In this document: in pieces, positions 1,186 to 61,848 of the stretch
Layout: every line of letters starts with the position of its first letter
Numbering within the stretch: the first letter of the stretch is position 1
Origin: Geminocystis sp. GBBB08
GTDB lineage: Bacteria > Cyanobacteriota > Cyanobacteriia > Cyanobacteriales > Cyanobacteriaceae
Length of the DNA stretch: 64,000 nt
NCBI RefSeq assembly: GCF_016743215.1
Contig: NZ_VRZC01000003.1
Coordinates: 8,222 to 72,221, forward strand
Direction of reading: 5' to 3'
Translations under genes and position numbers: made by a program
Notes under the pieces: generated by a model
What the model was told of the DNA's origin: nothing
The model's input: the letters and a program-made list of their open reading frames with translations, nothing else
Databases searched by the model: none

Positions 1186-1245
1186 TTTTTTATTTTTAAT
1201 TTGTTGTGTAAGTATCAATTTCAGATACTTTTATCTAAAACATAG

Positions 1246-1277
1246 CAAGGGGTTTTCAAATATCCCTTGTTTTTTAT
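1246..1277 (+). terminator. Probable intrinsic terminator between convergent rps1 and transglutaminase genes
   Basis: CAAGGG...CCCTTG stem followed by a T run. Confidence 0.5.
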
Positions 1278-1280
1278 TGT

Positions 1281-2750
1281 TTATTTGTATTCTAATAAAG
1301 CCCAATAACGGGAATCCTCTGGAAATTTAGCAAATACGATTATTTTTCCTGAATCTATATTGATATTCCCCGTAAAAACATTTCCATAACGGGTTAAATC
1401 TTGCCATTGATTAGTTGATTGATTAAATACTTTTACTTCTATTGCTGAATCAATTTTTAGTTTAAAATAAGTACTTGGATTGGCAGATAAATTCGCCATT
1501 AACGGTGATTCTAAATAACCATTATTATCAACAAAATGTTTAAAAGTTGTCGGAAATTTATCGCTACTACTACTTGCCGAAATTTGATACGTTACTATTA
1601 AAGGATAATTATTACTACCATCTTTTGGTTTCGCAAATATCTCCAATTCATAATCCCCTTTTTCAGGAAACCCCGTATTAACTATAATATTTTTTCCCTG
1701 TTTCTGCACAAAAGTATAATTATCTGATAACTCTTTTTCTCCTGATTTTAATTTGGCGATCGCCACAACATTTGTAGGAGCATTTAAAGTAATATTAAGA
1801 CGATTATTAGTATTAATTTTAAAATTTTTATGACTAACTAACTTTATATCATATTCAAATAAAGTAGAAGAAACATCAGGTAAAGTATCAAATTGAGAAC
1901 GAGAAATAGGTATATTTAATAATTGCCATTGGGGATTTTCAGGGAAATGACTATAAACAAATTCCTCTGGTTTTGTGGCAAAATAATAGGGATTAAAATT
2001 AGCATAAAAAACATTATTACTAACAGTACCTGCTCACCAAGTAGTATCAATTATATACCAGTTTTGATTAATTTTAACTGCATTCCAAGCATGATTAACT
2101 TCATTATCATCTCCGACAACATAGTTAATACCTTTAGCATATCCAGTAACAATAACAGATTTTAACCCCATATATTGAGCCAATTGTTGATATAAATTAG
2201 CATAACCAGAACAAATAGTTGATCGAGTATTTAAGACAGTTTCAACTTTTATATCAGGATAAATATTGTTTTCAAATAAATCAGCTAAAGCCGCTACATC
2301 ATAAGTAATATTATCGGTAATCCATGTATAAATAATTCGAGCTTTTTCTTCTTCAGTGTCAGCATATTGAGATAAAATATTAGCTAACTCTTGAACAGAA
2401 TTGCCATTATATTGAATATTTCTAGCAGTATTATCAATACTAGTAAATCTTTTTTCTTGAAGATTAACAGGATTATTAATAACAATAGGTTCATCAATTT
2501 TTGTAACAAATTCTTCTGTGATGAATTTAAGAGAATTAGGAGAAAAAGACAAAAAGTTAGCAATATTTTTCCAGGTTAATAATTCAGAATTTAAGCCAAA
2601 AAATTGTGGATAATTTTTAATCGTCAACCCAAAAGATAAAAATATAATTATTATCAATAAATTTGAAATAAAACTACTCTTTTGTTGATGATTTTTTCGA
2701 GCTTTATTTATGCGTCTTTCCCATTCTTGATATTCTCTATTTGTCGCCAT
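1281..2750 (-). pseudogene. Transglutaminase-like (Cys-His-Asp) domain membrane protein with one in-frame TGA
   Basis: ORFs 2034..2750 and 1281..1766 share a frame and the 89 codons between them are open; reads ...ICSGYA...HAWNAV...IDTTW-TGA-AGTVS...YFATKPEEFVYSHFPENPQWQLL. Confidence 0.8.
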
Positions 2751-2805
2751 AAAAATAGTTAGTAGTTAATAGTTTTACTTTAGGCATCTTGTCATTTCCT
2801 AATTT

Positions 2806-3153
2806 TTAATTATTAAGAATTTCTTCCATAAAAAGTCTTAATTTTTGTTTAGCAATGATTAACTTATTTTCGTCAAATTGAAACTCTTGTAACTCAGATA
2901 AAAATTCTATATATTCAGTATCAAAAACTATTCTAAAATCATTAATGTTCCATAATAAATCAGAAGTAAAACGTAAATCATGAATGGTATCTTTCTGAGA
3001 AAAATAATTATGATTTTGAGCTTGTAAATCAACTAAAAGTATAGGTCTAACCCAACATATTTTACGCTCATTAATTACTTCAATAACTTCACAATATAAA
3101 GAATTTTTGGTACTATCTAAACACACTATTTGACGGTTAATAAATTGTGCCAT
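2806..3153 (-). CDS. Hypothetical protein
   Basis: 115-aa ORF co-oriented upstream of the transglutaminase gene; no motif recognised. Confidence 0.65.
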   Translation of the reverse strand: MAQFINRQIVCLDSTKNSLYCEVIEVINERKICWVRPILLVDLQAQNHNYFSQKDTIHDLRFTSDLLWNINDFRIVFDTEYIEFLSELQEFQFDENKLIIAKQKLRLFMEEILNN

Positions 3154-3461
3154 TTTTTAGTTAATAGTTTTTGAATGTTTAGCAAGATGCAAAGGTTAGT
3201 TATATAGCAATCCTATGTGAGTTATAAGATTTAAAGAGGTGTTAGCTATCAGCTTTCAGTAGTCAGCTTTAAGGTATAGTAAGATTTACAGATTTATTTT
3301 TTAGTCTTTAATTCTTCCCGAATGATTTAGGATTGCAATAGAAAAGACAAAGAGATAAAATAGAATTTATGTTGTAGAATAAAACCCCTAAGTTACCATT
3401 GAAAAAAGATAAAATAGAGGTAAATAATAACTTATTTTGAATTATTGAAAAATAATTAAAT

Positions 3462-3602
3462 TTAAACTACAACATAGGCAAATTTAAGTGCCCAGATAAT
3501 TAAAGCGATAATGCTTCCCAGAATAACGACAGCGGAAATACCGATAATAATAGGCTTGTCTGCACCATCAAACTTCATGATGCCACGATTTAAGTCAGAC
3601 AT
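3462..3602 (-). CDS. ndhQ: NDH-1L complex small subunit NdhQ (46 aa; absent from the ORF track)
   Basis: Hand translation MSDLNRGIMKFDGADKPIIIGISAVVILGSIIALIIWALKFAYVVV; NRGIMKFDGAD plus one TM helix matches NdhQ as I recall it. Confidence 0.85.
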   Translation of the reverse strand: MSDLNRGIMKFDGADKPIIIGISAVVILGSIIALIIWALKFAYVVV

Positions 3603-3752
3603 AAAATTCTCTAAAGGAATATAAGATTATTTCTTATTTTCTAGGTTAGCTTAAAAAAAGCGATAATTATCAAATCTGAGAGAAAAATTCACCATTCTTA
3701 ATCTTTTTCTCACCAATTATAGAGTTTAAACCCCTTGCCTATTTATCATTTT

Positions 3753-5225
3753 TCATTCCTCATCATTAGCTTTCCAACTGCCATGCAATCCATAAGGGAT
3801 ATGTTGCTTTAAATGTAATGTTGTTATTGGGTTACTAATATCTTTCCCCTCAAATATAACTAATTTTGAATGATGAGAACTAGAATCATAGATTAAAACC
3901 AATATCCAACCATCATCTTCTGATTCTGGATTCTTTTTAGGTATAAATACTGGTTCACCGGCAAAGCCTTTCGGGGCAAAGGAGTATAATTCTTCTTTTT
4001 GGGTAGTTAAATCTAGTTTCAGCAAACCTTGTAAAGGAGCATTTTTTGTGGGATGATCTACAGCACCAATAAAAATATAACGGTAATTTCTGCCTACATT
4101 TTTTGGATTGATAGAGGGAAATTCGACACAACGATTATTAATTAATTCTTGACTAACTTTTTTATTAATTAAATCAAGTTTAAACCGCCATAATTTTCCG
4201 GGTGCAAGTTTCTCGAAATCCACTTCTTTATAACTATTATCAGGATCAATTTGACTTAATTGGGCATAACAAATGGAGTCGATAGCAATTTCATTACTAT
4301 TCACCTCAAAGGCATTAGCATGATGGAAAATGAAACCTGCTTTTGTTTCAATAGTAATAACTTTTTCATGGGGTGCATGACGAGGAATTAAAATAATTTT
4401 AGTGGGTTGGTTACTATCAAAATTTACACATTCTCCAGCACCTTTAAAACCGAAAATAAAAGGAAAAGGGTTATAGGTGGTAGGATTTTGAAAAAAGATG
4501 CAATAGTTAGAGGTGATCAAAAAATCATGGATAAAAGAAAATCCAGGAGTTGTATGACTATATCGATCAATAATTTTGCCTAATTCGTCAAATTCATAAA
4601 CAGTAATAGTGCTAGAAAGTCCAGGTTTGATACCAAAATTGACTAAAGAAGGTTTATCGTGATTCAATGGGGAATAAGGATCTATTCTAGGATGAGCACT
4701 AAATACATCTCCTTTTTGTAAAATACCATCTAAATTATCTAAACCCATGGTTTCTAAATTTTCAGGATTAAGACGATAGGGGTGTGCTGCTTCCCATAAA
4801 GCTAATAATTTATTTCCCCAATAAATAATGTTAGTATTAGCAATATTTTTTACCCGTATATCAAATAAGTTAGCTAACAATCCCCCCGGTTTTTGACTAC
4901 CAAAGACTCCCCGATAAAGCATTTTACCTGCTTTTTGCTCTTCTAAATATTCCTTAGTTTTTACAAAGCGATTACGAAAAAAACACCGCCCATTTTTAAA
5001 AGTAAAAGCACAAATCATACCGTCACCATCGAAGGGATGTTGTAAAGGTGTACCATGAACTTCTAATAATCCTGGTCCATTACGATATAATGTTCCCGAT
5101 AATTCTAAAGGTATCTCTCCTTCTATCTCTTCAATCAAATATTCTAATTCTTGGAATTGGGATTCATAACCTTGTCGCCAATCTGATAATGAGTATGATT
5201 GAGACGGTTTTTCTAACTGTTGCAT
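3753..5225 (-). CDS. Carotenoid oxygenase (RPE65 family, apocarotenoid oxygenase-like)
   Basis: GTLYRNGPG, HPFDGDG, FSAHP, FIHDF, EFPSINP and C-terminal GLHGSW motifs. Confidence 0.93.
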   Translation of the reverse strand: MQQLEKPSQSYSLSDWRQGYESQFQELEYLIEEIEGEIPLELSGTLYRNGPGLLEVHGTPLQHPFDGDGMICAFTFKNGRCFFRNRFVKTKEYLEEQKAGKMLYRGVFGSQKPGGLLANLFDIRVKNIANTNIIYWGNKLLALWEAAHPYRLNPENLETMGLDNLDGILQKGDVFSAHPRIDPYSPLNHDKPSLVNFGIKPGLSSTITVYEFDELGKIIDRYSHTTPGFSFIHDFLITSNYCIFFQNPTTYNPFPFIFGFKGAGECVNFDSNQPTKIILIPRHAPHEKVITIETKAGFIFHHANAFEVNSNEIAIDSICYAQLSQIDPDNSYKEVDFEKLAPGKLWRFKLDLINKKVSQELINNRCVEFPSINPKNVGRNYRYIFIGAVDHPTKNAPLQGLLKLDLTTQKEELYSFAPKGFAGEPVFIPKKNPESEDDGWILVLIYDSSSHHSKLVIFEGKDISNPITTLHLKQHIPYGLHGSWKANDEE

Positions 5226-5473
5226 CGTATTTGCTTAAAATAAGTTAATATTTATTAATAATTCTTTACCAATTATAAATTAATTAGCCATTAGAAATTA
5301 GAAATTAATCACTTCCCTCTCTTCTCATTATTGATGTTATAATGCAGAGGGTGATTTTTGTTACAAAACTTCACATTATTGACAACTACTAACCTGATAC
5401 TCTAATAACAGAAGCTAGTTAAAGTTTAAATCCAATCTAGTTTACTAACTTAAAAAGGAAAGCAATATTTATC

Positions 5474-6202
5474 ATGGAATATTCCCCAAATCAACGAACA
5501 GCTATCATTACCGGAGCTAGTAGTGGAATTGGTAAAGCAACCGCCATCGCTTTTGCAAAATCAGGCATTAATTTATGTTTAATTAGTCGTCAACAAGCAA
5601 AATTACAGGCAGTAGCAGATATAGTTTCTGAATATGGAGTAAAAGTTAAAATAGTTGCCACTGATTTAGCTGAAGTATCTACCGTAAAAGCACAAATAGA
5701 AACCATTGCCAAGGAATTGGGAACGATCGATATTCTTGTGAATAATGCAGGAATAGGTTATACAAACCTTCTTCGAGAAACATCCTTAACAGACTGGCAA
5801 GAAGTATTAAATCTAAATTTGACTAGCGTTTTTCAATGCGTTATGGGGGTACTACCGCACATGAGAAAACAAGGTCAAGGTACAATTATTAATGTAGCGT
5901 CTATTGCTGCCAATAATGCTTTTCCAGAATGGGGAGCTTATGGTATAAGTAAAGCGGCTTTAGTTACTTTTAGTCAGTGTTTAGCTGTAGAAGAAAGAAG
6001 CAACGGCATTCGAGTCACAATCATTTCTCCGGGTGCAGTTAATACACCAATTTGGGATACTGATACAGTACAATTGGATCTTAATCGAGGGGCAATGCTT
6101 AAACCGGAAACTATCGCTCAAACTATCTTACAAGCAGTATTACTTCCTCCAGAAGCAGTTATCGAACAATTAACCATAACCCCTAGTCTTGGGGTGTTAT
6201 AG
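5474..6202 (+). CDS. Short-chain dehydrogenase/reductase
   Basis: TGASSGIG, NNAG and YGISK catalytic motif; directly upstream of folE. Confidence 0.9.
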   Translation: MEYSPNQRTAIITGASSGIGKATAIAFAKSGINLCLISRQQAKLQAVADIVSEYGVKVKIVATDLAEVSTVKAQIETIAKELGTIDILVNNAGIGYTNLLRETSLTDWQEVLNLNLTSVFQCVMGVLPHMRKQGQGTIINVASIAANNAFPEWGAYGISKAALVTFSQCLAVEERSNGIRVTIISPGAVNTPIWDTDTVQLDLNRGAMLKPETIAQTILQAVLLPPEAVIEQLTITPSLGVL

Positions 6203-6365
6203 ATTAATATTTACTTTTCAAACCACGAATTTCATTAACTTTTTTGTGGTGGTGTTTTTGCTGGATAAATCCCTAAAACATCTTAATTTGTTGAGCTTTT
6301 TTGGTTCAAGTAACGAAAATCCCTCCCCTAAAATCACACCATTAAACTAATTTGTTAACTTAACT

Positions 6366-28379: not shown

Positions 28380-28538
28380 ATTGAACTATTTATTGTTTTT
28401 TCATAAGGATCTTTATTTCTAAAATACAGCGATTCGTCACTGCATAATTTAACATTTTGTAACGAAGAGGGGATATTTCCGTTAATGATAAAAAATGTTG
28501 CTCAAAGATCATTAAACCTTTATCATAGTTAATAAGTT

Positions 28539-28713
28539 GACTACTACGTTGGTGACTGCCAATCAAGTTTTTTGATCTATACTTGAGTTATAAGGAAACT
28601 AACTGAGTTCTCGTAGCAGTAAACCGAGCATTTGTACTCGGAAACGAACACAGAAACGTTGGTATCCCCCTGGTTTTCCAGGTCATAAACTGAGGTAAAA
28701 CGGCGTAGCGGTC
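28539..28713 (+). ncRNA. ssrS: 6S RNA
   Basis: 175-nt non-coding stretch whose ends pair (GACUACUACGUUG with CGGCGUAGCGGUC), with an inner stem CUGAGUUC/GAACACAG and an apical CCGAG/CUCGG hairpin; G-U pairs favour the + strand; GUAAAACGGC motif as I recall from cyanobacterial 6S. Confidence 0.75.
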
Positions 28714-28871
28714 ATATACATCGCTTTTCAGATAAATAAGCCACATTTTTTATTTCTCGCTCATGAAGCTCATGGTGCCAAGGCACCCTTGGCAGAATCC
28801 AAAGTGTGGTTTAAGGAAATAAAAACTGTTGTAATCAGTTATTAGCAACTTATGGTTTTATTTATTAAGGT

Positions 28872-38640: not shown

Positions 38641-39717
38641 TTAAGGAGTGGCGATAATGTGTAAATCAATTTGTTTTTTCCAGATTAACTTTATTAATTT
38701 TTGAGTAAAAGAACCTTTAAGAAATTGTTTCCAACGGGATTGTTGACTTTCTCCGATGACAATTTGAGTGATTTTTTCTTTTTCAGCAACTTCGGTGATG
38801 GTATTAGGAACATTATAACTCTTAATTACTAAAAAATTACCCCCAAAATCTTGACACAATTGTTCACAGGTTTCAATATGTAAGGCTTCTGCTTTGGAGA
38901 GAAAATGGTCAGGATTTTGAACAAACAAAACGAATAGAGGGGCATTCATATAATTAGCTAATCTTGCACCCCGACGTAATAAACGTAAAGAATTAGGATA
39001 GGTAGATACACAAACTAACACCCTTTCTTGAATAGAATAAGATTGAGCTGGAGATAAAGATTCTTCTCCTTCTTCTTCAACGGTATCCGCCACTTCCCTT
39101 AAAGCTAGTTCCCTTAAAGCGATTAAATTTTTACGTTGAAAAAAATTTCTTAAAGATTGCTCAATTTTATTACTAGCGTAAATTTTACCTGCTAATAAAC
39201 GTTCTTCTAAGGTTTCTGGGGTAACATCAATGACAACGACTTGATCAGCTTCTTCTAAAATACGATCAGGGATACGTTCTCTAACCACTACACCAGTAAT
39301 TTTTGCTACAAGATCATTAAGGCTTTCTAGGTGTTGAATATTAACAGTAGAATAGACATCAATTCCGGCGTTAAGAATTTCTTCCACATCTTGATAACGC
39401 TTTGGATAACGAGAGTTAGGGATATTAGTATGGGCTAATTCATCAATTAACACTAATTGGGGATGGCGATCGACAATCGCTTTCGTGTCCATTTCTGTTA
39501 GAGTGGGATTAGTTTGAGAAATAGACTTCCGGGGGATAACTTCTAAACCTTTAGCCTGTAATAAAGTCTCTTGACGGTTATGGGTTTCTAAAAGTCCAAT
39601 GACTACATCAATACCTTGTTGTTTAAGACTTTTAGCATCCTGAAGCATTTTATAGGTTTTACCTACTCCTGGTGCCATACCGATAAATATTTTATGTCTG
39701 CCTCGTTTTTTATTCAT
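38641..39717 (-). CDS. kdpD: Truncated KdpD (N-terminal sensor plus USP domain; no TM or kinase domain)
   Basis: KIFIGMAPGVGKTYKML, LIDELAHTN, TVNIQHLESLND and LIALRELAL; ends after the USP domain. Confidence 0.92.
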   Translation of the reverse strand: MNKKRGRHKIFIGMAPGVGKTYKMLQDAKSLKQQGIDVVIGLLETHNRQETLLQAKGLEVIPRKSISQTNPTLTEMDTKAIVDRHPQLVLIDELAHTNIPNSRYPKRYQDVEEILNAGIDVYSTVNIQHLESLNDLVAKITGVVVRERIPDRILEEADQVVVIDVTPETLEERLLAGKIYASNKIEQSLRNFFQRKNLIALRELALREVADTVEEEGEESLSPAQSYSIQERVLVCVSTYPNSLRLLRRGARLANYMNAPLFVLFVQNPDHFLSKAEALHIETCEQLCQDFGGNFLVIKSYNVPNTITEVAEKEKITQIVIGESQQSRWKQFLKGSFTQKLIKLIWKKQIDLHIIATP

Positions 39718-39924
39718 TTTTTTTTCTCGCAAAGGCGCAAAGTCGCAAAGAAATGTACAAAGAGATAATGGTAAGATAAGGACAAGAAATAATTGAGAAG
39801 TGTTATATTAGTTTTAGAAAGTCCTAAAAGTCAACAATTATCTGAAATATAAGTAAATAACTTTGCTGTTAATTGCCTTATATTATACTTATTGCAGAAG
39901 TCAGGGAATAAAGATTAACGAATA

Positions 39925-41693: not shown

Positions 41694-41785
41694 TTTTACT
41701 GATGCACAGGCAAGATGCTTGTTTACTGATGCACAGGCAAGATGCCTGTTTTACTGATGCACAACAGGCAAGATGTTTGTTTTAC
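41694..41785. repeat. Three tandem 27-31-bp units, each with an ACAGGCAAGATGCCTGT-type hairpin
   Basis: TTTTACTGATGCACAGGCAAGATGC(C/T)TG repeated just downstream of the ABC ATPase stop codon. Confidence 0.85.
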
Positions 41786-41806: not shown

Positions 41807-42589
41807 CTACTGATAATTTTCCAGAAAATCTAACGCCTCATTACGCAAATGATAATATTCCGTTGTCTCTCGTAATTCATGGGCATGACGGGGGCGTGGT
41901 AAAGGAATATCAAGTACCTTACCAATCGTAGCGTTTGGGCTATTTGTCATCATCACAACTTTATCAGACATAAAAATAGCCTCATCCACATCGTGAGTAA
42001 TCATCATCACAGCCTGACGGTGATTTTCCCAAATATCGATTACCTGCTGTTGTAACTTCGGGCGAGTTAAAGCATCTAACGCTCCAAAAGGTTCATCTAA
42101 CAATAATAATTTAGGACGAGTAGCTAAGGCACGGGCAACCCCAACTCTTTGTTTCATACCTCCTGAAAGTTCGTGAGGATACTTGTCGGCGGCGGGAGTT
42201 AATTTTACCATTTCGATATGTTTATTCACAATGCTGATTTTTTCAGCAACGGTGGCTTTTTTAAATACTTCATCAACCGCTAATCTGATATTTTCCCTGA
42301 CGGTTAACCAAGGTAAGAGAGCGTATCCTTGAAATACCATCATGCGATCGGCACCGGGTTTAGTGATTCGTTTTCCTTCTAGTGTCACCATGCCAGAGGT
42401 AGGCTTTTCTAATCCCGCAACGATTCTGACGAGGGTTGATTTGCCACAGCCTGAATGTCCGATTACGGAGACATATTCTTTTTCTCCTACACTTAGGTGA
42501 ATACCGTTTAAAACGACAAAATCACTGCCGTCTGGTTTTTTGAAGGATTTGACTACGTTTTCGATAGTTAAAAATTGTTGTTGTGTCAT
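41807..42589 (-). CDS. NrtD/CmpD-family ABC ATPase (ATG 42589 preferred)
   Basis: GHSGCGKST, LSGGMKQRVGVARAL, LLLDEPFGALD and MITHDVDEA. Confidence 0.93.
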   Translation of the reverse strand: MTQQQFLTIENVVKSFKKPDGSDFVVLNGIHLSVGEKEYVSVIGHSGCGKSTLVRIVAGLEKPTSGMVTLEGKRITKPGADRMMVFQGYALLPWLTVRENIRLAVDEVFKKATVAEKISIVNKHIEMVKLTPAADKYPHELSGGMKQRVGVARALATRPKLLLLDEPFGALDALTRPKLQQQVIDIWENHRQAVMMITHDVDEAIFMSDKVVMMTNSPNATIGKVLDIPLPRPRHAHELRETTEYYHLRNEALDFLENYQ

Positions 42590-42652
42590 TTTCTTTTGAT
42601 GGGTTATTGTTTCTCGCAAAGGCGCAAAGGCGCAAAGAGGTACAAAGAATTC

Positions 42653-44050
42653 CTAAGTAAAACTATAAATTTGTGGGCGATTAGCTCGAATGTCGAAGGA
42701 GTTAATGTAGTTAATTGGGTTACTCGCATCAAAGGATTTTCCATCAATAAAGGCTTTTCCGTCCACTATTTTATAATCGTCTTGAGGGCAGTTGATGCCC
42801 ATTTCGGTAGCTATTTCTCGGTATAAGTCGGTACGCCACGCTTTTTTGGCTATTTCTTCGGCATTACGAGGAAATTCAGGAATTTGCCCCCACCTTGTGG
42901 CTTGTGTCATTAACCAGAAGCTATCGGATTGCCATAGGAAGGTTGAATGATCGTTTTCGATATTTGATACTTCGGGAGGTAAGTCAAAAAATAGAGTCGT
43001 TTCTAAACTTTTTTTTATTCTCGGTTGATCATCAAAGCCTCCATAATTAAAGTTACCGATTATACCGGCTTCTGTATATTTACTTTTAGCACCAGTAAAT
43101 GATCGTTGAGAGATAATTTGGGCTACTTCTTCTCGATTTTCTTGTTTACTGCAATATTGACAGGCTTCTATCATGGCTTTCACTAATGAGCGATAGGTTT
43201 TGGGGTTTTGCTCAATGAAAGATTCTTGTACTGCTAAGAGTCTGTCTGGATGCCCTCGCCATATTTCTCGCCCTTGAGCAAAGGTAAAGCCGATGCCTTC
43301 ATTGCCACTGATAGCCCTTGTATTCCAAGGTTCAGCTACCATATAGGCTTGCATTGCTCCGATTCTCATATTACTTACCATTTGCGGTGGAGGGGTGATG
43401 ATTACTCGCAATTCATCGATGGGATTTAAACCCACAGAAGCCACAAGATAACGAACAAAATACTCATAAATAGCGGAACTCAGCACCACAGCCCAAACTC
43501 GTTCATTAAGGGGAGCTTTTTGCCAAAAATTGCGTAAATCCTGTCCAAAAGCGTCTAAATTACCATTATAGGTGAACCAAGGTCTTATTCCCCCTTCCCA
43601 TAGTTTACGATTCATGGTTAAAGCGTTGCCGTGACGGTGAATTGTCATAGCCGCACACAAGGGAAATTTTCTCGCCCCTTCTGCCCCTAATCTGGCGTTT
43701 GTTATCGAACCTGAGACAACAGGAGAAGCATCTAAACGACCAAAAATAATCCCGTCTCTGGAGTTTGCCCAACTCGCTTCCCGACTCAAAGTTACATTTA
43801 AACCATACTTGCGAAAAAAGCCTTTTTCCCATGCGATCGCAAAAGGGGCGCAGTCATTAACAGGAACAAAACCAACGGTTAAATTAGGTTTTTCAAGGGT
43901 TTCTGGCTTGATAATCGGTTCAACGGCTAAAGCAGTATCAGGGATATTTGAGGGTTGATTACTTTGTGTTTTGGTACAACTATTAAGGGTGATGGCACCA
44001 ACGGTTGCCCCTATGCCTTGCAAAAATAAACGACGATGATAATTTGTCAT
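42653..44050 (-). CDS. NrtA/CmpA-family substrate-binding lipoprotein
   Basis: Tat signal RRLFL with lipobox LNSC; GFVPVNDCAP, PPPQMVSNM, AEPWN and WLMTQATRWG. Confidence 0.92.
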   Translation of the reverse strand: MTNYHRRLFLQGIGATVGAITLNSCTKTQSNQPSNIPDTALAVEPIIKPETLEKPNLTVGFVPVNDCAPFAIAWEKGFFRKYGLNVTLSREASWANSRDGIIFGRLDASPVVSGSITNARLGAEGARKFPLCAAMTIHRHGNALTMNRKLWEGGIRPWFTYNGNLDAFGQDLRNFWQKAPLNERVWAVVLSSAIYEYFVRYLVASVGLNPIDELRVIITPPPQMVSNMRIGAMQAYMVAEPWNTRAISGNEGIGFTFAQGREIWRGHPDRLLAVQESFIEQNPKTYRSLVKAMIEACQYCSKQENREEVAQIISQRSFTGAKSKYTEAGIIGNFNYGGFDDQPRIKKSLETTLFFDLPPEVSNIENDHSTFLWQSDSFWLMTQATRWGQIPEFPRNAEEIAKKAWRTDLYREIATEMGINCPQDDYKIVDGKAFIDGKSFDASNPINYINSFDIRANRPQIYSFT

Positions 44051-44055
44051 AAATT

Positions 44056-44904
44056 TTACCCCCTCGCAGGACGATGAGTAACGAGAGTTTGTAATTTAGC
44101 AAGGGCATAATCAAGAATTAACCCCGTAATACCAATGACAAATACCGCTAAAAATACCGAACTAACATTAAGACGATTCCACTCATCCCAGACAAAAAAG
44201 CCAATACCGATACCTCCTGTCAACATTTCTACGGCTACGATGACTAACCATGCAATCCCTAAACTGATGCGTAACCCGGTGAAAATATAGGGCAAACTAG
44301 CAGGAAGCATTACCGTTACCAACTGTTTCCAACGAGGCATTTCCAACACTTGAGCCACTTCTAAATATTCCGCAGGAACGTTTTTAACTCCCTCTGCGGT
44401 ATTGATAATCGTTGACCATAAAGAAGTAATAAAAATTACAAAAATAGCTGAAGGTTCAGCAGAATTGAAGATTGCTAAAGCGATGGGCAACCAAACAAGA
44501 GGAGAAACAGGTTTAAAAACTTGAATAACAGGGTTGAGAATTTGCCATGCGGTGTTATTCATCCCGATTAAAAAACCTACAGGAATAGCGACGATCGCAC
44601 CCAATAAAAAACCAATACAGACTCGCCTCAAACTAGCTAATAGTAACCATCCTAACCCTAAATCTCCTGGTCCTCGACGGTAAAAAGGATGTAAAATAAA
44701 GTCAAGATTTTTCGCTAACGCTTCGGGAGGAGTAGGCATCATTTCACTACGAAAAAGAGCAATAATCCACCATAAAACTATGATTCCTGCAAAACCAATT
44801 AACGGTAAAAAAACCTGAGAATTAGTAAATTTTTCGAGAAAATTATTTTTTTTAAAACCCATATAAAAAGCCTTATTTACTTTATTTTTACTAAAAATAT
44901 TCAT
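44056..44904 (-). CDS. NrtB/CmpB-family ABC permease (start 44904 or 44862; the extension to 45003 crosses a repeat)
   Basis: ASLRRVCIGF, KPVSPLVWLPI, GLRISLGIAWLVIVAVEML and GIGFFVWDEWN. Confidence 0.92.
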   Translation of the reverse strand: MNIFSKNKVNKAFYMGFKKNNFLEKFTNSQVFLPLIGFAGIIVLWWIIALFRSEMMPTPPEALAKNLDFILHPFYRRGPGDLGLGWLLLASLRRVCIGFLLGAIVAIPVGFLIGMNNTAWQILNPVIQVFKPVSPLVWLPIALAIFNSAEPSAIFVIFITSLWSTIINTAEGVKNVPAEYLEVAQVLEMPRWKQLVTVMLPASLPYIFTGLRISLGIAWLVIVAVEMLTGGIGIGFFVWDEWNRLNVSSVFLAVFVIGITGLILDYALAKLQTLVTHRPARG

Positions 44905-45181
44905 GAGTACTACTAAAAAGCAACATCCACAAAGACTTTTAAACCTTTGCGTCCTTTGCGCCTTTGCGTGAAAATATCTCTTTAAAATTAAGTACAAAAA
45001 CAAGTAACCTTGCTTAAAAATTAAAGCAAAATCAATCAGTTTTTATAGTTAATAAAAATTAGAAAATTAACAATAATTCATATTAAATTACACCTCAAAG
45101 TCAAATAAAGGTAATCGAATGTAGAGATTTGTCAAAGTCGGAATACCTAAATGAAATTGAGACAAAAAATGCTCATTCTTT

Positions 45182-45310
45182 AGTCTCCTCTCAATGCCTA
45201 CGAAGTTAGCTGACGGGCTAGGACTGAGAGATGTCCCTTTTTACTGTTAAAGTAAAAATAAGCCCCCAATTTGGTTCCTCCGCTTCTTTTTAACTCGGAA
45301 TTAGGCTGAC
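45182..45310 (-). promoter_or_regulatory. Cyclic di-AMP riboswitch (ydaO/yuaA)
   Basis: Minus strand GCCUAAUUCC...AGCGGAGGAACCA...GGGGG...AGGG...CCCGUCAGCUAACUUCGUAGGC matches the ydaO core motifs in order; P1 GCCUA/UAGGC; hairpin UUUUUACU/AGUAAAAA. Confidence 0.92.
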
Positions 45311-45503
45311 TCACTCTAAAAGTTGATTATATCTTATAGATTCTATTTTCGCTGTAATGGTGAACACAAAATTTAAGGATTGTTTCTCGCAAAGGCGCAA
45401 AGCCCCAAAGAAAGGTACAAAGAATTATTAGTGTCTTAGTTAGTTTTTCTACGAGAGCCAATCCTGTCTCTTTTACTTGTCTTAATTTATCTATAACTGC
45501 TAC

Positions 45504-45983
45504 TCAAGTTTTTTTATGAAGCTGAATTTGTCCTCCATTTAAAAAACTTGAGTATTTTTCGATCGACATAAAATCAGTATAACGAGAACTCATTTCTGGT
45601 GGGATAAATTCAAACATGAAATGGTTTTCTACCCACACTTCTATTAAATCAAAAGGACCTCGATCGCAATACCGATGTAGCCAACCTTCATTTTCTGCGA
45701 TCGCTTCAATTTCGGCTTGACTACTAGGTACTGTCATAGCGGCATGAGTCGAACTAAAACTAGAAGGAGAAGTATTTGTTTGGGAAATAACTGCTGTTTC
45801 ACCCGGTATCAATTCTAAGCCTAGGGGTTGAATTTCAATGGCAGTACCATATTTATCTCCCACTATCACAATATATGAATTAGGAAAAACAGGAAAAGGA
45901 AATTCTTGTCCTTGTACAATCTTTGCAAGTACTCGGGCAACATGAGCTGGATTTTTGACTGCGATTGACAGATGATGTAACAT
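45504..45983 (-). CDS. VOC/glyoxalase-like protein (ATG 45983 preferred)
   Basis: MLHHLSIAV, GTAIEI, THAAMTV and DLIEVWVENHFMFEF pattern. Confidence 0.65.
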   Translation of the reverse strand: MLHHLSIAVKNPAHVARVLAKIVQGQEFPFPVFPNSYIVIVGDKYGTAIEIQPLGLELIPGETAVISQTNTSPSSFSSTHAAMTVPSSQAEIEAIAENEGWLHRYCDRGPFDLIEVWVENHFMFEFIPPEMSSRYTDFMSIEKYSSFLNGGQIQLHKKT

Positions 45984-46140
45984 AATTTTTATTCCTTTAA
46001 AACTATTGTTAATTGAAAATCTCTTTGACTGAACAATTAACTTTCTTTGTCTCAATTCTAATTAAATTCTCATCAAGTTTATGTAATAATTTGTTTCAAT
46101 GTCATCGATCAACTGTTATATTATTGATACATAAAAAACT

Positions 46141-48202: not shown

Positions 48203-48802
48203 TTAACTATTTAGAGGGCGTAACATTTCCGATACCTTAATTTCAGTTTCAGGAAAATTTAAAGGTGAGATCGACTCTTGATCACTTAAAATCATGGTAG
48301 TTTGATAATCTTGACTATTAGACTCTCGATAAACATAGAGTTGACGTTGTTTGAGATCTAATACCCAATATTCAGGTATATTTGCAGAAGCGTACAATTG
48401 ACGTTTAACTTCTAAGTCGGTTTTCAAGGTAGTGTCTGCAATTTCAATGATTAAATAAACTTCCGTAGCGTTAGGATGTCGATCATCGTAATCTAAAGAA
48501 TCATACTTGACAATGGCAATATCAGGCTCAGGTTGGGAAAAATCGTTAACAATAATCGGTAATTGTAGTCTAATTAATACTTGATTGAAGTCTTTTGTAA
48601 ATAAACGATTTGTACGGGTAATAGCGGCGGCGTGAAAACTTCCTTGAGGTGACATAGTAATAATTTGTCCGTTAATTAATTCTACTTTTTCTTGATGAGT
48701 TAAAATACCGACTTCTGCCATGAGATTATATTCTCTGACGGTTAAGAGTCTCAAGGGTAAAGAATAAACATTGGGGGAAGTTTCAGTGATTAGCATATTC
48801 AT
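48203..48802 (-). CDS. Uma2 family endonuclease
   Basis: VELINGQII, PEPDIAIV, LIIEIADTT and YASANIPEYWVLDL. Confidence 0.9.
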   Translation of the reverse strand: MNMLITETSPNVYSLPLRLLTVREYNLMAEVGILTHQEKVELINGQIITMSPQGSFHAAAITRTNRLFTKDFNQVLIRLQLPIIVNDFSQPEPDIAIVKYDSLDYDDRHPNATEVYLIIEIADTTLKTDLEVKRQLYASANIPEYWVLDLKQRQLYVYRESNSQDYQTTMILSDQESISPLNFPETEIKVSEMLRPLNS

Positions 48803-48908
48803 ATTTAGATTGTGAATATTATAGAAATATTATAGTTTTTTATCTCGCAAAGGCGCAAAGACGCAAAGAAGAAAAAAGTTTTTTGGAGGTGAGAGAAGCT
48901 AAATAAAG

Positions 48909-49423: not shown

Positions 49424-49467
49424 ATTTACTTTGTGACTTCTTTGCGCCTTTGCGCCTTTGCGTGAGA

Positions 49468-57647: not shown

Positions 57648-57719
57648 ATATTCCTTATGTCAAACTATGCAACCAACCTTAAAACCCTTTGCGTCTTTGC
57701 GAGAGAAAAACCTCCCCCA

Positions 57720-60518: not shown

Positions 60519-61598
60519 ATGAACAAAACTTTTGCGTCTTTGCGCCTTTGCGAGAAAAAAAACCTTCTCATTATTTTCTTATTCATTATCGTTATCACCC
60601 TGGAATTTACCACTTCTCCAGCCTACGTCTTTGGATATCTTTACACTGGTGGAATTTTATTAGTCAATGTATTTTATGGAGGTAAAGCAACCTTAATCGC
60701 CACAATTATCTCCGTATTCCTCACCCTGCTTAACTTGTATGTGCATATCGGCACTGTTATTGAATTACCAACCCTTGCCAATCGGTTAATTACGACTCTC
60801 TCTTTAATCGTTACAGGATGGTTAAGTAACCGTAACCGCATCTATCAGCAAAAAATAGTCGAGCAACAAACTAAGCTACAATCTCAGGAAGAATTAGTCG
60901 GATTAAGACAGGATTTTGCTTCTACCCTCACCCACGACTTGAGAACACCCTTACTAGGTGCGATCGAAACCATCAAAGCCTTTCAGAATAAGCAATTTGG
61001 AGAGATTACTACCATTCAAGAAAAAGTCTTAGCTACTATGATTCGGTCTCATCAATCCAGTTTACAATTAGTGGATACCTTATTAGATGTGTATCGCAAT
61101 GACTTAGAAGGCTTAAATTTGAGACTATCTCCTTTAGATTTAACGGTTTTAGTGGAAGAAGTCGCTAACAGTTTGACTTCCTTAGCCTCAGCAAATCAGG
61201 TTTACCTTACCTTCAATTACGGTGATTCGGATTTTCGTCAATCTTTGTGGGTTAATGGGGATGCTTTTCAGTTAAAGCGAGTCTTGACAAATTTACTTAT
61301 CAATGCTGTTAATCATTCTCGACGGGGCGATCGCATCGAAATTATTTTATCTTCTCAAGGCAATGGGCTTAAGCCCCTTGTTAAAATATTAGACTATGGT
61401 TCGGGTATTAAACCAGAGGATTTTCCTTTTTTATTCGATCGATTTTACCAGTCTAACAGCGATCGACAAGCAAAAGGCACTGGTTTAGGTTTATATCTTT
61501 GTCGTCAAATTATTGAGGCTCACGGTGGTAAAATTTGGGCAGAAAATCATTCTCAAGGTGCTATTTTTAGTTTTTCTCTTCCTGTTTATCAAGGTTGA
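60519..61598 (+). CDS. Membrane sensor histidine kinase
   Basis: TM N-terminus; STLTHDLRTPL H-box, NLLINAVNHS N-box, DYGSGI and GTGLGLYLC. Confidence 0.93.
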   Translation: MNKTFASLRLCEKKNLLIIFLFIIVITLEFTTSPAYVFGYLYTGGILLVNVFYGGKATLIATIISVFLTLLNLYVHIGTVIELPTLANRLITTLSLIVTGWLSNRNRIYQQKIVEQQTKLQSQEELVGLRQDFASTLTHDLRTPLLGAIETIKAFQNKQFGEITTIQEKVLATMIRSHQSSLQLVDTLLDVYRNDLEGLNLRLSPLDLTVLVEEVANSLTSLASANQVYLTFNYGDSDFRQSLWVNGDAFQLKRVLTNLLINAVNHSRRGDRIEIILSSQGNGLKPLVKILDYGSGIKPEDFPFLFDRFYQSNSDRQAKGTGLGLYLCRQIIEAHGGKIWAENHSQGAIFSFSLPVYQG

Positions 61599-61848
61599 TT
61601 TTTCTCTCGCAAAGGTGCAAAGACGCATAGAAGGCACAAAGGAATAAGGTTAAGAGTTTATTACGGTATGTACCGTTTTATTCCGCATAAATGTATCAGA
61701 AAGACAAGACATGATTGAGAAATGCTATATTAGTTTTAGAAAGCCATAAATAAACACAGATAGGTATGAACCCAATATTTTATAGAAACTTATACAAAAA
61801 GCTCTATAAAATATCGTGGGCTTTGGCACTATCTAGCCACCTCATACC

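What the first reader, a model, noticed from the sequence alone, without database searches (positions are those of the whole stretch)
41807..45310. c-di-AMP riboswitch controlling a nitrate/bicarbonate-family ABC transporter of unknown substrate
A near-consensus ydaO/yuaA aptamer lies about 280-320 nt upstream of a permease-binding protein-ATPase operon on the same strand. It is followed by a GAGAC...GTCTC hairpin that overlaps the aptamer 3' flank and could be the expression platform. c-di-AMP is established as a K+ and osmotic homeostasis messenger. This operon sits among kdpABFC, kdpD, corA, a CorC-type protein and amt. The operon order is B-A-D and it lacks the NrtC/CmpC subunit with its regulatory extension. 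I infer an osmotically or K+-regulated anion importer, distinct from the NtcA-controlled Nrt and low-CO2-induced Cmp systems.
Basis: partly seen in the sequence, partly recalled or inferred. Interest (0 to 1): 0.82.

Follow-up and report, generated by a model that had tools for sequence, protein, structure and literature searches.

The report
c-di-AMP riboswitch before NrtB/A/D-like transporter
A genuine c-di-AMP-sensing RNA sits in front of a three-gene ABC importer related to the nitrate and bicarbonate pumps; the pairing is widespread in cyanobacteria and already noted in passing in the literature, but what the pump carries is still unknown.

Summary
Rfam RF00379 matches window 45317..45180 (- strand) at 78.5 bits (threshold 38). 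It lies upstream, on the same strand, of permease, binding-protein and ATPase genes.

The pairing is not peculiar to this window. Sixty of 80 species-level orthologous loci carry the aptamer in the same place. All loci found with the operon keep the B-A-D order and none has an NrtC/CmpC-type subunit.

The pairing is already mentioned in a 2026 NAR survey. In Synechococcus PCC 7002 a c-di-AMP riboswitch heads an ABC transporter unit that stays silent; I infer this is the pAQ7 orthologue I located.

New here:
- A conserved leader shows covariation for the aptamer pseudoknot and for a hairpin after the aptamer.
- The 3' arm of that hairpin is complementary to the ribosome-binding site, which fits a translational OFF switch.
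- In the window's clade the controlled start codon now opens only a 4-codon relic ORF. The permease starts about 180-220 nt further on, so coupling here is unresolved.
- The binding-protein pocket is W/Y/A/D-R instead of the nitrate-type W/H/G/K, invariant in 120 orthologues. The permease channel residues are kept.

Linkage to kdp recurs in a few lineages but is not general. This is a new member of a known kind, of moderate interest.

The parts
45326..45331 (-). TATAAT -10-like box, 9 nt upstream of the first aptamer base. It is the likely promoter of the riboswitch transcript.
   Evidence: Read from the sequence. 'aagaTATAAT' followed by 8-9 nt and then AGAG(T/A)GAGTC is conserved in L200, L203 and L208. 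The consensus scan did not flag it because the -35 is weak. Inference.
45180..45317 (-). c-di-AMP riboswitch aptamer (ydaO/yuaA class, RF00379).
   Evidence: cmscan: 78.5 bits, gathering score 38, E 1.5e-16, model positions 1-134.
45188..45230 (-). Aptamer pseudoknot. The loop CTCTCA (45230..45225) pairs with the 3' tail TGAGAG (45193..45188).
   Evidence: 97.5% of cells are paired across 47 leaders, and 4 of 6 pairs show changes on both sides (helix 2).
45146..45184 (-). Conserved hairpin after the aptamer (P_A). Its 5' arm abuts or overlaps the aptamer tail. Its 3' arm (45161..45146) carries the anti-Shine-Dalgarno CTCA(A). In the window the stems are CTAA/TTAG, GAA/TTC and TGAG/CTCA.
   Evidence: Covariation, helices 3-4: all 7 inner pairs change on both sides. 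The window clade's substitutions are compensatory when read from alignment A2.
45159..45187 (-). It is an alternative, clade-specific conformer that consumes the aptamer tail.
   Evidence: It is part of the minimum-energy fold of the isolated leader, -24.7 kcal/mol, z -0.76 against shuffles. Leaders outside the window clade have no GTCTC at this position.
45067..45096 (-). Shine-Dalgarno GAGG (45096..45093) and a relic start ATG (45081..45079). The ATG opens a 4-codon ORF, MNYC* (45081..45067).
   Evidence: The ATG lies 123 nt after the aptamer core. In Nostocales the permease start lies at 122-124 nt. Relatives have MNCC* (L200, L208), MNFWKS* (L203) and MNCS* (L205).
44905..45066 (-). Clade-specific AT-rich spacer between the relic ORF and the permease start. 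It contains an octamer array (CGCAAAGG, 3 copies) at 44944..44969.
   Evidence: Typical leaders measure 98-154 nt from aptamer core to start, against 301 nt in the window. The spacer varies in length and sequence among relatives. Octamer array.
44056..44904 (-). Permease (NrtB-like, 282 aa). The start could instead be the ATG at 44862, which has a TAAGG 9 nt upstream.
   Evidence: TIGR01183, 243 bits (cut-off 209). NrtB 8w9m_B scores E 6e-67 and CmpB 9u9z_A E 2.8e-64. CmpB channel residues R129/L134/R210/L218 align to K131/L136/R/L (PMC13287603).
42653..44050 (-). Substrate-binding lipoprotein (465 aa). It has a Tat motif RRLFLQG and a lipobox LNSC. It belongs to the NrtA/CmpA family but forms a distinct orthogroup.
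   Evidence: Pfam NMT1_2, 221 bits. PDB matches: CmpC/NrtC regulatory domains at about 230 bits, NrtA/CmpA at about 170 bits. Pocket W94/Y195/A239/D269-R270 is invariant in 120 orthologues, except A239 in 119 of 120.
41807..42589 (-). ATPase (NrtD-type, 260 aa from M11; the ORF opens at 42619). It has no C-terminal regulatory domain.
   Evidence: TIGR01184, 353 bits (cut-off 292). Orthologues are called at 260 aa.
41694..41785 (.). Tandem repeat, 27-28 nt in 3.2 copies, just downstream of the ATPase stop. Its function is unknown; it may mark the transcript's end region.
   Evidence: Tandem Repeats Finder, score 136.

Best explanation
A c-di-AMP riboswitch at the 5' end of the mRNA governs a three-gene ABC importer. 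The importer consists of an NrtB-like permease, an exported NrtA/CmpA-family binding lipoprotein and an NrtD-like ATPase, with no regulatory NrtC/CmpC subunit. I read it as an OFF switch.

**Shown:** the aptamer, its pseudoknot and the hairpin after it (P_A) are conserved and covary. The 3' arm of P_A is complementary both to its own 5' arm, which abuts the aptamer tail, and to the Shine-Dalgarno region.

**Inferred mechanism:**
- At high c-di-AMP the aptamer tail is locked into the pseudoknot and an extended closing helix (AGUC:GACU). P_A is weakened, its 3' arm pairs with the Shine-Dalgarno sequence, and translation initiation falls. The mRNA level probably falls as a consequence.
- At low c-di-AMP (K+ limitation or hyperosmotic stress) P_A or the GAGAC:GUCUC conformer forms, the Shine-Dalgarno sequence is free, and the operon is expressed.

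**In this window's clade** the gated start codon is a 4-codon relic ORF, and the permease begins 180-220 nt further on. The link between the switch and the transporter is therefore indirect or weakened.

**Cargo (inferred):** most likely a small anion that is related to, but not the same as, nitrate.
For: **Aptamer and linkage**
- Aptamer at 78.5 bits.
- The same aptamer lies on the same strand upstream of the permease in 58 of 80 loci by an exact 16-base core match. Two more come from Rfam, and 10 of 15 from an Rfam scan of a sample.
- 17 of the sampled riboswitch loci from a genome-wide pattern scan also carry the operon.

**Leader structure**
- Pseudoknot and P_A covariation: 90.9% of cells paired against 85.5% in shuffles, 70 cells changed on both sides against 24, and 28-44% paired when the partners are slid.
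- The P_A 3' arm binds its own Shine-Dalgarno region at -10.7 kcal/mol against -8.5 for other loci's regions (0 of 2000 permutations). Two control segments show no such preference.
- Blocking the tail lowers predicted Shine-Dalgarno accessibility in 26-31 of 51 leaders.

**Transcripts**
- RNA contigs from Microcystis metatranscriptomes run unbroken from the aptamer through the permease into the binding-protein gene.
- In PCC 7002 the riboswitch is transcribed while the downstream ABC genes are silent (PMC12789804). I infer that unit is the pAQ7 orthologue.

**Cargo**
- Pocket and channel residues.

**Regulon partners**
- Other cyanobacterial copies of the riboswitch head CitMHS/ArsB-type anion permeases, Usp proteins and a GT4 glycosyltransferase.
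- In Synechocystis the riboswitch controls slr0753 (PMC10117731).
Against: - No RNA data exist for this genome; the best public run holds only 12% of the sampled words.
- In the window clade the Shine-Dalgarno sequence is predicted to be mostly paired whether or not the tail is blocked (P unpaired 0.01-0.13). Its anti-SD duplex is weak (-7.3 kcal/mol).
- The gated ATG opens only MNYC*. The 160-220 nt AT-rich spacer could hold its own promoter, although no sigma-70-like site with 9 of 12 matches lies there on the operon strand.
- There is no canonical intrinsic terminator after the aptamer.
- The sense of the switch (OFF) is taken from other c-di-AMP riboswitches and the PCC 7002 expression pattern. 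It is not derived from this sequence.
- The sequences are related, so the shuffle and Wilcoxon figures overstate significance.
- 17 orthologous loci have lost or never had the aptamer.
- The substrate is unknown. Arg-for-Lys and Tyr-for-His changes could still allow nitrate binding.
Confidence: 0.68

Rival explanations
1. The riboswitch works at the level of transcription, by premature termination or rapid decay after the aptamer, rather than by hiding the ribosome-binding site. The reader's GAGAC/GTCTC stem or P_A would be the attenuator.
For: - Characterised c-di-AMP riboswitches in Firmicutes act on transcription (PMC6488665, kdpFABC in B. thuringiensis).
- In PCC 7002 reads cover the riboswitch but not the transporter genes (PMC12789804).
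- The window's minimum-energy stem is followed by a U-rich stretch, UUUAGGUAUU.
- Leaders of the Oscillatoriales/Pseudanabaena type carry U runs after a hairpin (L003).
Against: - No terminator-like site lies between 45180 and 44904 on the operon strand.
- Most leaders have no U tract after P_A.
- The cognate-specific complementarity of the P_A 3' arm to the Shine-Dalgarno region is not needed by a terminator model.
- The window's minimum-energy fold is no better than shuffles.
- The PCC 7002 pattern also fits decay of an untranslated mRNA.
Confidence: 0.2
2. In this window's clade the riboswitch is a decoupled relic. An insertion behind the ancestral start codon separated it from the permease, which is now expressed from a promoter in the spacer or by read-through. 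c-di-AMP would no longer control the transporter here.
For: - A 4-6 codon relic ORF sits at the ancestral start in the window, L200/L208, L203 and L205.
- The spacer is poorly conserved and measures about 180-340 nt.
- Elsewhere the aptamer has clearly decayed while the operon persists: relic halves are visible in L006, L019, L020, L026 and L028.
Against: - The aptamer still scores 78.5 bits.
- The clade's own substitutions in P_A are compensatory (CTAA/TTAG, GAA/TTC, TGAG/CTCA). The Shine-Dalgarno sequence and ATG are kept at +123 in four distinct sequences. Both point to continued selection after the insertion.
- No strong promoter match lies in the spacer.
Confidence: 0.12
3. The transporter is simply a second nitrate/nitrite, cyanate or bicarbonate importer, as RefSeq names it. 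c-di-AMP control would only add a stress override to ordinary N or C acquisition.
For: - The permease and ATPase pass the NCBIfam nitrate-transporter cut-offs.
- Channel residues are conserved.
- The Trp and a cationic pocket residue are retained.
Against: - The pocket has His->Tyr, Gly->Ala and Lys->Arg with an added Asp, invariant in 120 orthologues.
- Identity to characterised relatives is only about 33%, against 66-93% within the family.
- No nirA, narB, cynS or carbonic-anhydrase gene appears among the recurrent neighbour clusters that were annotated in 82 loci.
- GTAN8TAC occurs in 1 of 17 aptamer-less leaders, which is the chance level.
- The PCC 7002 genes downstream of the riboswitch, which I infer are the orthologue, are silent in the cultures grown at every CO2 level from 0.04% to 30% (PMC12789804).
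Confidence: 0.25

Closest known systems
c-di-AMP (ydaO/yuaA) riboswitches of Firmicutes: B. subtilis ydaO/kimA and ktrAB leaders, B. thuringiensis kdpFABC leader (PMC6488665)
   Same: They share the aptamer family (RF00379, full-length match). They are OFF-type sensors of the same messenger and sit in 5' leaders of ion and osmolyte transport genes.
   Different: - The regulated genes here are a NitT-type ABC importer, not a K+ transporter.
- The conserved platform looks translational (anti-SD in the 3' arm of a hairpin) rather than a terminator.
- Cyanobacteria lack Rho (background knowledge).
Cyanobacterial c-di-AMP riboswitch upstream of Synechocystis slr0753 (PMC10117731, citing Mantovani et al. 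2022), and the 'ydaO-yuaA / nrtB K15577' pairing listed for 202 cyanobacterial genomes (PMC12873609)
   Same: They come from the same phylum and share the aptamer. The nrtB pairing is the same operon family as in this window. A PCC 7002 orthologue lies on pAQ7.
   Different: Those reports give no anatomy of the leader, no analysis of the transporter, and no statement of substrate. The window's clade has the extra relic ORF and spacer.
NrtABCD nitrate/nitrite transporter and CmpABCD (BCT1) bicarbonate transporter of cyanobacteria (PMC10945777, PMC13287603)
   Same: The permease, ATPase and binding-protein folds are homologous. Permease channel residues are conserved at 3 of 4 positions, and the fourth is Arg->Lys. 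The binding protein is a membrane-anchored lipoprotein.
   Different: - The gene order is B-A-D, and there is a single ATPase type.
- There is no C-terminal regulatory domain, so no PII or nitrate sensing.
- The pocket is W/Y/A/D-R instead of W/H/G/K.
- There is no linkage to nirA/narB or to CCM genes.
- Control is by an RNA sensor of c-di-AMP instead of NtcA/NtcB or CmpR.
- The binding protein is closer in sequence to the intracellular NrtC/CmpC regulatory domains (about 230 bits) than to NrtA/CmpA (about 170 bits).
CynABD cyanate transporter
   Same: It is also a three-component NitT-family importer with one ATPase type.
   Different: The cyn genes are ordered A-B-D and are linked to cyanase (background knowledge). 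Here the order is B-A-D, and no enzyme gene is a recurrent neighbour.

Membership tests
c-di-AMP riboswitch (Rfam RF00379) | Covariance-model score at or above the curated gathering score, over the full model | tested here: met
   78.5 bits against 38, model positions 1-134, E 1.5e-16.
c-di-AMP riboswitch (Rfam RF00379) | Conserved helices and the 3'-tail pseudoknot, maintained by compensatory changes | tested here: met
   P7-type hairpin 97.9% paired, with 3 of 4 pairs changed on both sides. Pseudoknot 97.5% paired, with 4 of 6. The other helices were not counted separately.
c-di-AMP riboswitch (Rfam RF00379) | Located in the 5' leader, on the same strand as the regulated genes, with the position conserved among relatives | tested here: met
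   60 of 80 orthologous loci. The core-to-start distance is 98-154 nt in 67 of 75 leaders.
c-di-AMP riboswitch (Rfam RF00379) | Binds c-di-AMP and changes gene expression | not testable with these tools
   This needs in-line probing or ITC, and reporters.
NitT family ABC importers (nitrate/nitrite/cyanate/bicarbonate; TC 3.A.1.16) | Permease and ATPase match the NrtB and NrtC/D models above the curated cut-offs; the binding protein has an NrtA/CmpA-type fold | tested here: met
   TIGR01183, 243 bits against 209. TIGR01184, 353 bits against 292. NMT1_2, 221 bits. PDB matches at E 3e-67 to 6e-49.
NrtABCD nitrate transporter | Nitrate-binding residues Trp/His/Gly/Lys in the binding protein | tested here: not met
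   They align to W94/Y195/A239/R270, invariant in the orthogroup (A239 in 119 of 120).
NrtABCD nitrate transporter | NrtC subunit with a C-terminal regulatory domain; linkage to nirA/narB; NtcA-type promoter | tested here: not met
   One 260-aa ATPase in every locus found with the operon. Neighbour census. GTAN8TAC in 1 of 17 leaders.
CmpABCD bicarbonate transporter (BCT1) | CmpC with a nitrate-sensing regulatory domain; induction at low CO2 | tested here: inconclusive
   There is no CmpC-type subunit. In PCC 7002 the ABC genes behind the riboswitch, which I infer are the orthologue, are silent at 0.04% CO2 (PMC12789804). This was not tested for this organism. CmpA's own bicarbonate/Ca2+ ligand residues could not be compared because no CmpA alignment was obtained.
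CynABD cyanate transporter | A-B-D gene order with an adjacent cyanase | tested here: not met
   The order is B-A-D, and no recurrent enzyme neighbour was found. The cyn arrangement itself is recalled from memory.

The most novel reading that the evidence does not exclude
The operon encodes a so-far uncharacterised, c-di-AMP-repressed ATP-driven importer for a small anion that is neither nitrate, bicarbonate nor cyanate (signature pocket W/Y/A/D-R). Many cyanobacteria would switch it on when c-di-AMP falls, alongside CitMHS/ArsB-type anion permeases and Usp proteins. That would be an anion arm of turgor and K+ homeostasis. As a corollary, this exported binding-protein family may be the nearest living relative of the intracellular NrtC/CmpC regulatory domains.
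Probability: 0.3. Interest if true: 0.65.

Novelty: new member of a known kind. Interest (0 to 1): 0.42.

Why it matters
c-di-AMP signalling in cyanobacteria is tied to night survival, carbon sensing through SbtB, and salt acclimation, yet few of its targets are known. In the loci sampled here this operon is the commonest gene set behind the cyanobacterial c-di-AMP riboswitch, and its substrate is unknown. Naming the substrate would add a concrete output to the pathway. RefSeq currently calls the genes 'nitrate ABC transporter' although the nitrate-binding residues are not conserved, and that label would need correcting. The leader also offers a clean, covariation-supported example of a translational expression platform for this riboswitch class. 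A tractable model exists for testing: the orthologue on plasmid pAQ7 of PCC 7002, probably G0015-G0017 (my mapping of the old locus tags).

Tried and rejected
- **RNA evidence for the window itself.** No public run holds it; the best share of sampled words is 0.12.
- **RNA runs for the PCC 7002 locus L204.** I used a Microcystis locus instead, which yields contigs only and so no quantitative profile.
- **RNAalifold on the leader alignment.** It found only aptamer helices, because of gaps. I replaced it with explicit pair counts and a cognate-versus-non-cognate duplex test.
- **H_B hairpin 3' arm as an alternative anti-SD.** It shows no cognate preference, so I rejected it.
- **Thermodynamic accessibility modelling.** The effect is modest overall and absent in the window clade.
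- **Inverted repeat flanking the riboswitch (45388-45403 / 44953-44968).** These are copies of a dispersed octamer repeat, with 14 arrays in the window. It is not a mobile-element boundary.
- **NtcA boxes in aptamer-less leaders.** At chance level.
- **Papers not held.** Nelson 2013 (PMC3830699) and Koropatkin 2006 (PMC1502537). The original gene-association table and the full NrtA and CmpA ligand lists could therefore not be checked.
- **Literature on PCC 7002 G0015-G0017.** None found.
- **Not run.** Structure prediction and fold search were judged unnecessary, because sequence matches to solved homologues are already unambiguous.

Full report
**1. Observation**

A scan of the whole window with Rfam gives two matches. 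One is the c-di-AMP riboswitch RF00379 at 45317..45180 on the - strand: 78.5 bits, gathering score 38, E 1.5e-16, full model. The other is a 6S RNA elsewhere in the window.

Three ORFs follow on the same strand:
- Permease, 44904..44056. It passes the NCBIfam nitrate-permease model TIGR01183 (243 bits against a cut-off of 209).
- Binding protein, 44050..42653, 465 aa. It matches Pfam NMT1_2. Its N-terminus, MTNYHRRLFLQGIGATVGAITLNSC, has a Tat motif and a lipobox.
- ATPase. The ORF opens at 42619; the likely start is M11 at 42589, ending at 41807. It passes TIGR01184 ntrCD (353 bits against 292).

There is no second, extended ATPase. The next gene on the strand is a MotA/ExbB-like protein.

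It comprises kdpA, kdpB, a Uma2 gene, kdpC, corA, an unassigned 183-aa ORF, then the riboswitch operon, and downstream a truncated kdpD (KdpD N-domain plus Usp). amt lies on the other strand.

GAGAC (45187..45183) and GTCTC (45163..45159) exist. Their pairing is part of the minimum-energy fold of the isolated leader, but that fold is not better than shuffled sequence (z -0.76).

**2. The pairing is conserved, not local**

The binding protein belongs to a tight orthogroup. The 120 best cluster representatives share 72-100% identity and come from many cyanobacterial orders. The next characterised relatives are at about 33%.

I fetched 80 loci from genomes of 80 different species.
- 58 carry an exact match to the 16-base aptamer core, CTAGCCCGNCAGCTAAC, upstream on the same strand.
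- Rfam adds two more with a diverged core.
- In a sample of 15 loci, 10 had RF00379 above threshold at the expected place.

Every locus keeps the order permease, binding protein, ATPase.

Seventeen loci with enough upstream DNA lack the aptamer. Several of them still show recognisable halves of it: L006 keeps the 5' half, and L019, L020, L026 and L028 keep a mutated 3' half. A Pseudanabaena group has a different conserved leader. Control by c-di-AMP therefore looks ancestral for much of the family and has been lost repeatedly.

**3. kdp linkage**

Besides the window, kdp genes flank the operon in three places:
- A Pleurocapsa MAG (L029: kdpB, kdpC, kdpD, then riboswitch-BAD, then corA).
- L205/L206, where kdpD follows the ATPase on the same strand.
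- A Nostoc locus where the riboswitch lies near kdpD and kdpC (L131).

A close relative with 89% binding-protein identity (L200) has a PIN toxin gene and a DUF6492 gene as neighbours instead. The linkage is therefore recurrent but lineage-specific, and it adds little beyond what the riboswitch itself says.

Across 82 loci the recurrent neighbours are these:
- A divergent RsbRD_N histidine kinase (15 loci).
- A Usp protein directly downstream (12 loci).
- A CitMHS/ArsB-type permease (12 loci). In L062 and L049 it has its own c-di-AMP riboswitch.
- A CitMHS permease with TrkA_C domains (3 loci).

No nitrate or nitrite reductase, cyanase or carbonic anhydrase recurs.

Other cyanobacterial copies of the riboswitch head ArsB/CitMHS permeases and a GT4 glycosyltransferase.

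**4. How the leader is built**

In 67 of 75 leaders the distance from the aptamer core to the permease start is 98-154 nt. The leader aligns well across orders. Explicit pair counts on 47 leaders give the following:
- The aptamer pseudoknot (loop CUCUCA with tail UGAGAG) is 97.5% paired, with changes on both sides at 4 of 6 pairs.
- A hairpin starting inside the aptamer's 3' flank (P_A) is 79-93% paired, with changes on both sides at all 7 inner pairs.
- A second small hairpin (GGUAC/GUACC) is 92% paired.
- Sliding the partners by 1-3 columns drops pairing to 28-44%.

The 3' arm of P_A (consensus CUCAUCAG) is also complementary to the Shine-Dalgarno region (CUGAGGAG or UUGAGGUCG). Each arm binds its own Shine-Dalgarno region more strongly than those of other loci: -10.7 against -8.5 kcal/mol, with 0 of 2000 permutations as low. 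The 5' arm and the second hairpin show no such preference. In Calothrix the duplex is 14 bp and -16.8 kcal/mol.

This is the classic three-strand arrangement: the 5' arm and the Shine-Dalgarno region compete for the same 3' arm.

The 5' arm directly follows the pseudoknot tail. It overlaps a possible extension of the closing helix (5' AGUC with 3' GACU), for which there is one compensatory case, L042.

I infer that ligand binding ties up the tail and weakens P_A, so that the 3' arm covers the Shine-Dalgarno sequence (OFF). Blocking the tail in silico lowers predicted Shine-Dalgarno accessibility in about half of the leaders. This is only suggestive, because the sequences are related.

The OFF sense rests on other members of the class and on PCC 7002, where the riboswitch is transcribed under all conditions while the ABC genes behind it are silent (PMC12789804). 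An orthologue with the aptamer core upstream of ntrB lies on plasmid pAQ7. I infer that this is the unit the paper describes.

In Microcystis, contigs from four RNA libraries run unbroken from upstream of the aptamer through the permease into the binding-protein gene. This shows co-transcription in a relative, provided the libraries are free of DNA.

**5. What is different in this window**

The window and its close relatives (L200/L208, L203, L205) keep the aptamer, and they keep P_A with their own compensatory substitutions: CUAA/UUAG, GAA/UUC, UGAG/CUCA. They also keep the Shine-Dalgarno GAGG and an ATG at +123, which is exactly where the permease starts in Nostocales.

Here, however, the ATG opens only MNYC*. 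The relatives have MNCC*, MNFWKS* and MNCS*. A poorly conserved AT-rich spacer of about 180-340 nt follows, and the permease has a new N-terminus. The ancestral N-terminus (MIFQLN... or MNLS...AVAGQ) is gone.

The GAGAC:GUCUC stem is a clade-specific alternative pairing that uses the aptamer tail. It would fit the ligand-free state, but it is not the conserved element.

How a switch on a 4-codon ORF would reach the permease is open. Cyanobacteria lack Rho (background knowledge), so polarity is unlikely; mRNA stability is the obvious candidate. Alternatively, coupling may be weakened. Continued selection on the aptamer and platform argues against complete decoupling. No sigma-70-like site lies in the spacer on the operon strand. 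A TATAAT at 45331..45326, conserved in relatives, lies 9 nt before the aptamer.

**6. What the transporter may carry**

The nitrate-bound structure of the CmpC regulatory domain names Trp319, His408, Gly452 and Lys481 as ligands, with Lys481 equivalent to NrtA Lys269 (PMC13287603). Using the printed alignment to that chain (offset 259), these map to W94, Y195, A239 and R270, with D269 preceding. In 120 orthologues W94, Y195, D269 and R270 are invariant, and A239 holds in 119.

In the permease, the CmpB channel residues R129, L134, R210 and L218 align to K131, L136, R and L.

The machine therefore looks built for a small anion, but the pocket is not the nitrate pocket. I could not obtain a CmpA alignment, so bicarbonate-type ligation is not excluded on sequence grounds. 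The silence of the PCC 7002 genes at 0.04% CO2 argues against a CCM role.

The binding protein is more similar to the intracellular NrtC/CmpC regulatory domains (about 230 bits) than to NrtA/CmpA (about 170 bits). This is an evolutionary curiosity worth a proper tree.

**7. Comparison and novelty**

- The riboswitch is a standard member of RF00379.
- Its pairing with 'nrtB (K15577)' is listed in a 2026 survey of 202 cyanobacterial genomes (PMC12873609).
- The PCC 7002 riboswitch-headed unit is described in PMC12789804.
- A 2013 regulon survey notes that ydaO-yuaA controls many transporters that probably act in osmoregulation (PMC3766115).
- A c-di-AMP riboswitch is reported for Synechocystis slr0753 (PMC10117731).
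- I found no functional study of this transporter.

The finding is a new member of a known kind. What this analysis adds is the extent of conservation, the covarying translational platform, the relic ORF in this clade, the repeated decay of the aptamer, and the non-nitrate pocket signature.

**8. Verdict**

- The expression platform and the significance of the kdp context need correcting.
- Interest is 0.42. The interest lies mainly in the unknown substrate and in the availability of a tractable orthologue.

Noticed in passing
window 28535-28718 (+): 6S RNA (RF00013), 84.2 bits, full length.
   Followed up: no
window 39728-39751, 42615-42638, 44944-44969, 45388-45403, 48846-48869, 49439-49462, 57686-57701, 60529-60552, 61608-61623: Short tandem arrays of the octamer CGCAAAGG, in both orientations, scattered through intergenic DNA. 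There are 14 matches against 0.03 expected. This is an STRR-like, genome-specific repeat. Two copies flank the riboswitch and at first looked like an inverted repeat.
   Followed up: partly
window 41694-41785: A 27-28 nt tandem repeat (3.2 copies, consensus TTTTACTGATGCACAGGCAAGATGCTTG) immediately downstream of the ATPase stop. Its function is unknown.
   Followed up: no
window 48203-48802 (-): A Uma2-family (putative restriction endonuclease-like) gene sits between kdpB and kdpC and interrupts the kdp cluster. corA and an unassigned 183-aa ORF (45504-46055) lie between kdpC and the riboswitch. kdpD (38641-39732) is the truncated cyanobacterial form (KdpD N-domain plus Usp) and is followed by a CheB-type response regulator.
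   Followed up: partly
L006, L019, L020, L026, L028 (upstream of the permease; sequences): Decayed c-di-AMP aptamers. L006 keeps only the 5' half fused to the Shine-Dalgarno region. L019, L026 and L028 keep a mutated 3' half. L020 has a near-complete copy with a changed core. These look like independent losses of riboswitch control with the operon retained. A Pseudanabaena group (L007, L010, L012, L021, L038) has a different conserved leader with a TTGACT-type promoter motif.
   Followed up: partly
L062 806-986 and 1319-2695; L049 5387-5403 and 6056-7405; L004 2367-2538 (-) with 1157-2275 (-): A second c-di-AMP riboswitch lies next to the operon. It heads a CitMHS/ArsB-type permease in L062 and L049. 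In L004 it is divergently oriented and heads two Usp genes. A CitMHS permease with two TrkA_C domains is a neighbour in L077.
   Followed up: partly
L032/L162, L154/L035, L052, L040: In Pleurocapsales-type loci the aptamer lies 524-887 nt from the permease, because extra DNA with small ORFs has been inserted behind the leader. The site behind the ancestral start seems prone to insertions.
   Followed up: no
L134 (Lyngbya sp. CCY1209), L111 (Nostoc sp.), L131 (Nostoc indistinguendum): Riboswitch copies followed by broken versions of the operon. L134 has a truncated permease-like ORF. L111 has only an ATPase fragment. L131 has a transposase-like ORF and then kdpD.
   Followed up: no
L066 2700-2823 and 6172-6400: Very high word depth in Microcystis metatranscriptome contigs at both flanks of the operon, and a contig that joins 2735 to 6332. 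This indicates repeat elements bracketing the locus and a form of the region that lacks the operon.
   Followed up: no
window 42653-44050 against PDB 9uai/9u9z/8wm7: The exported binding protein is closer in sequence to the cytoplasmic regulatory domains of NrtC/CmpC than to the periplasmic NrtA/CmpA.
   Followed up: partly
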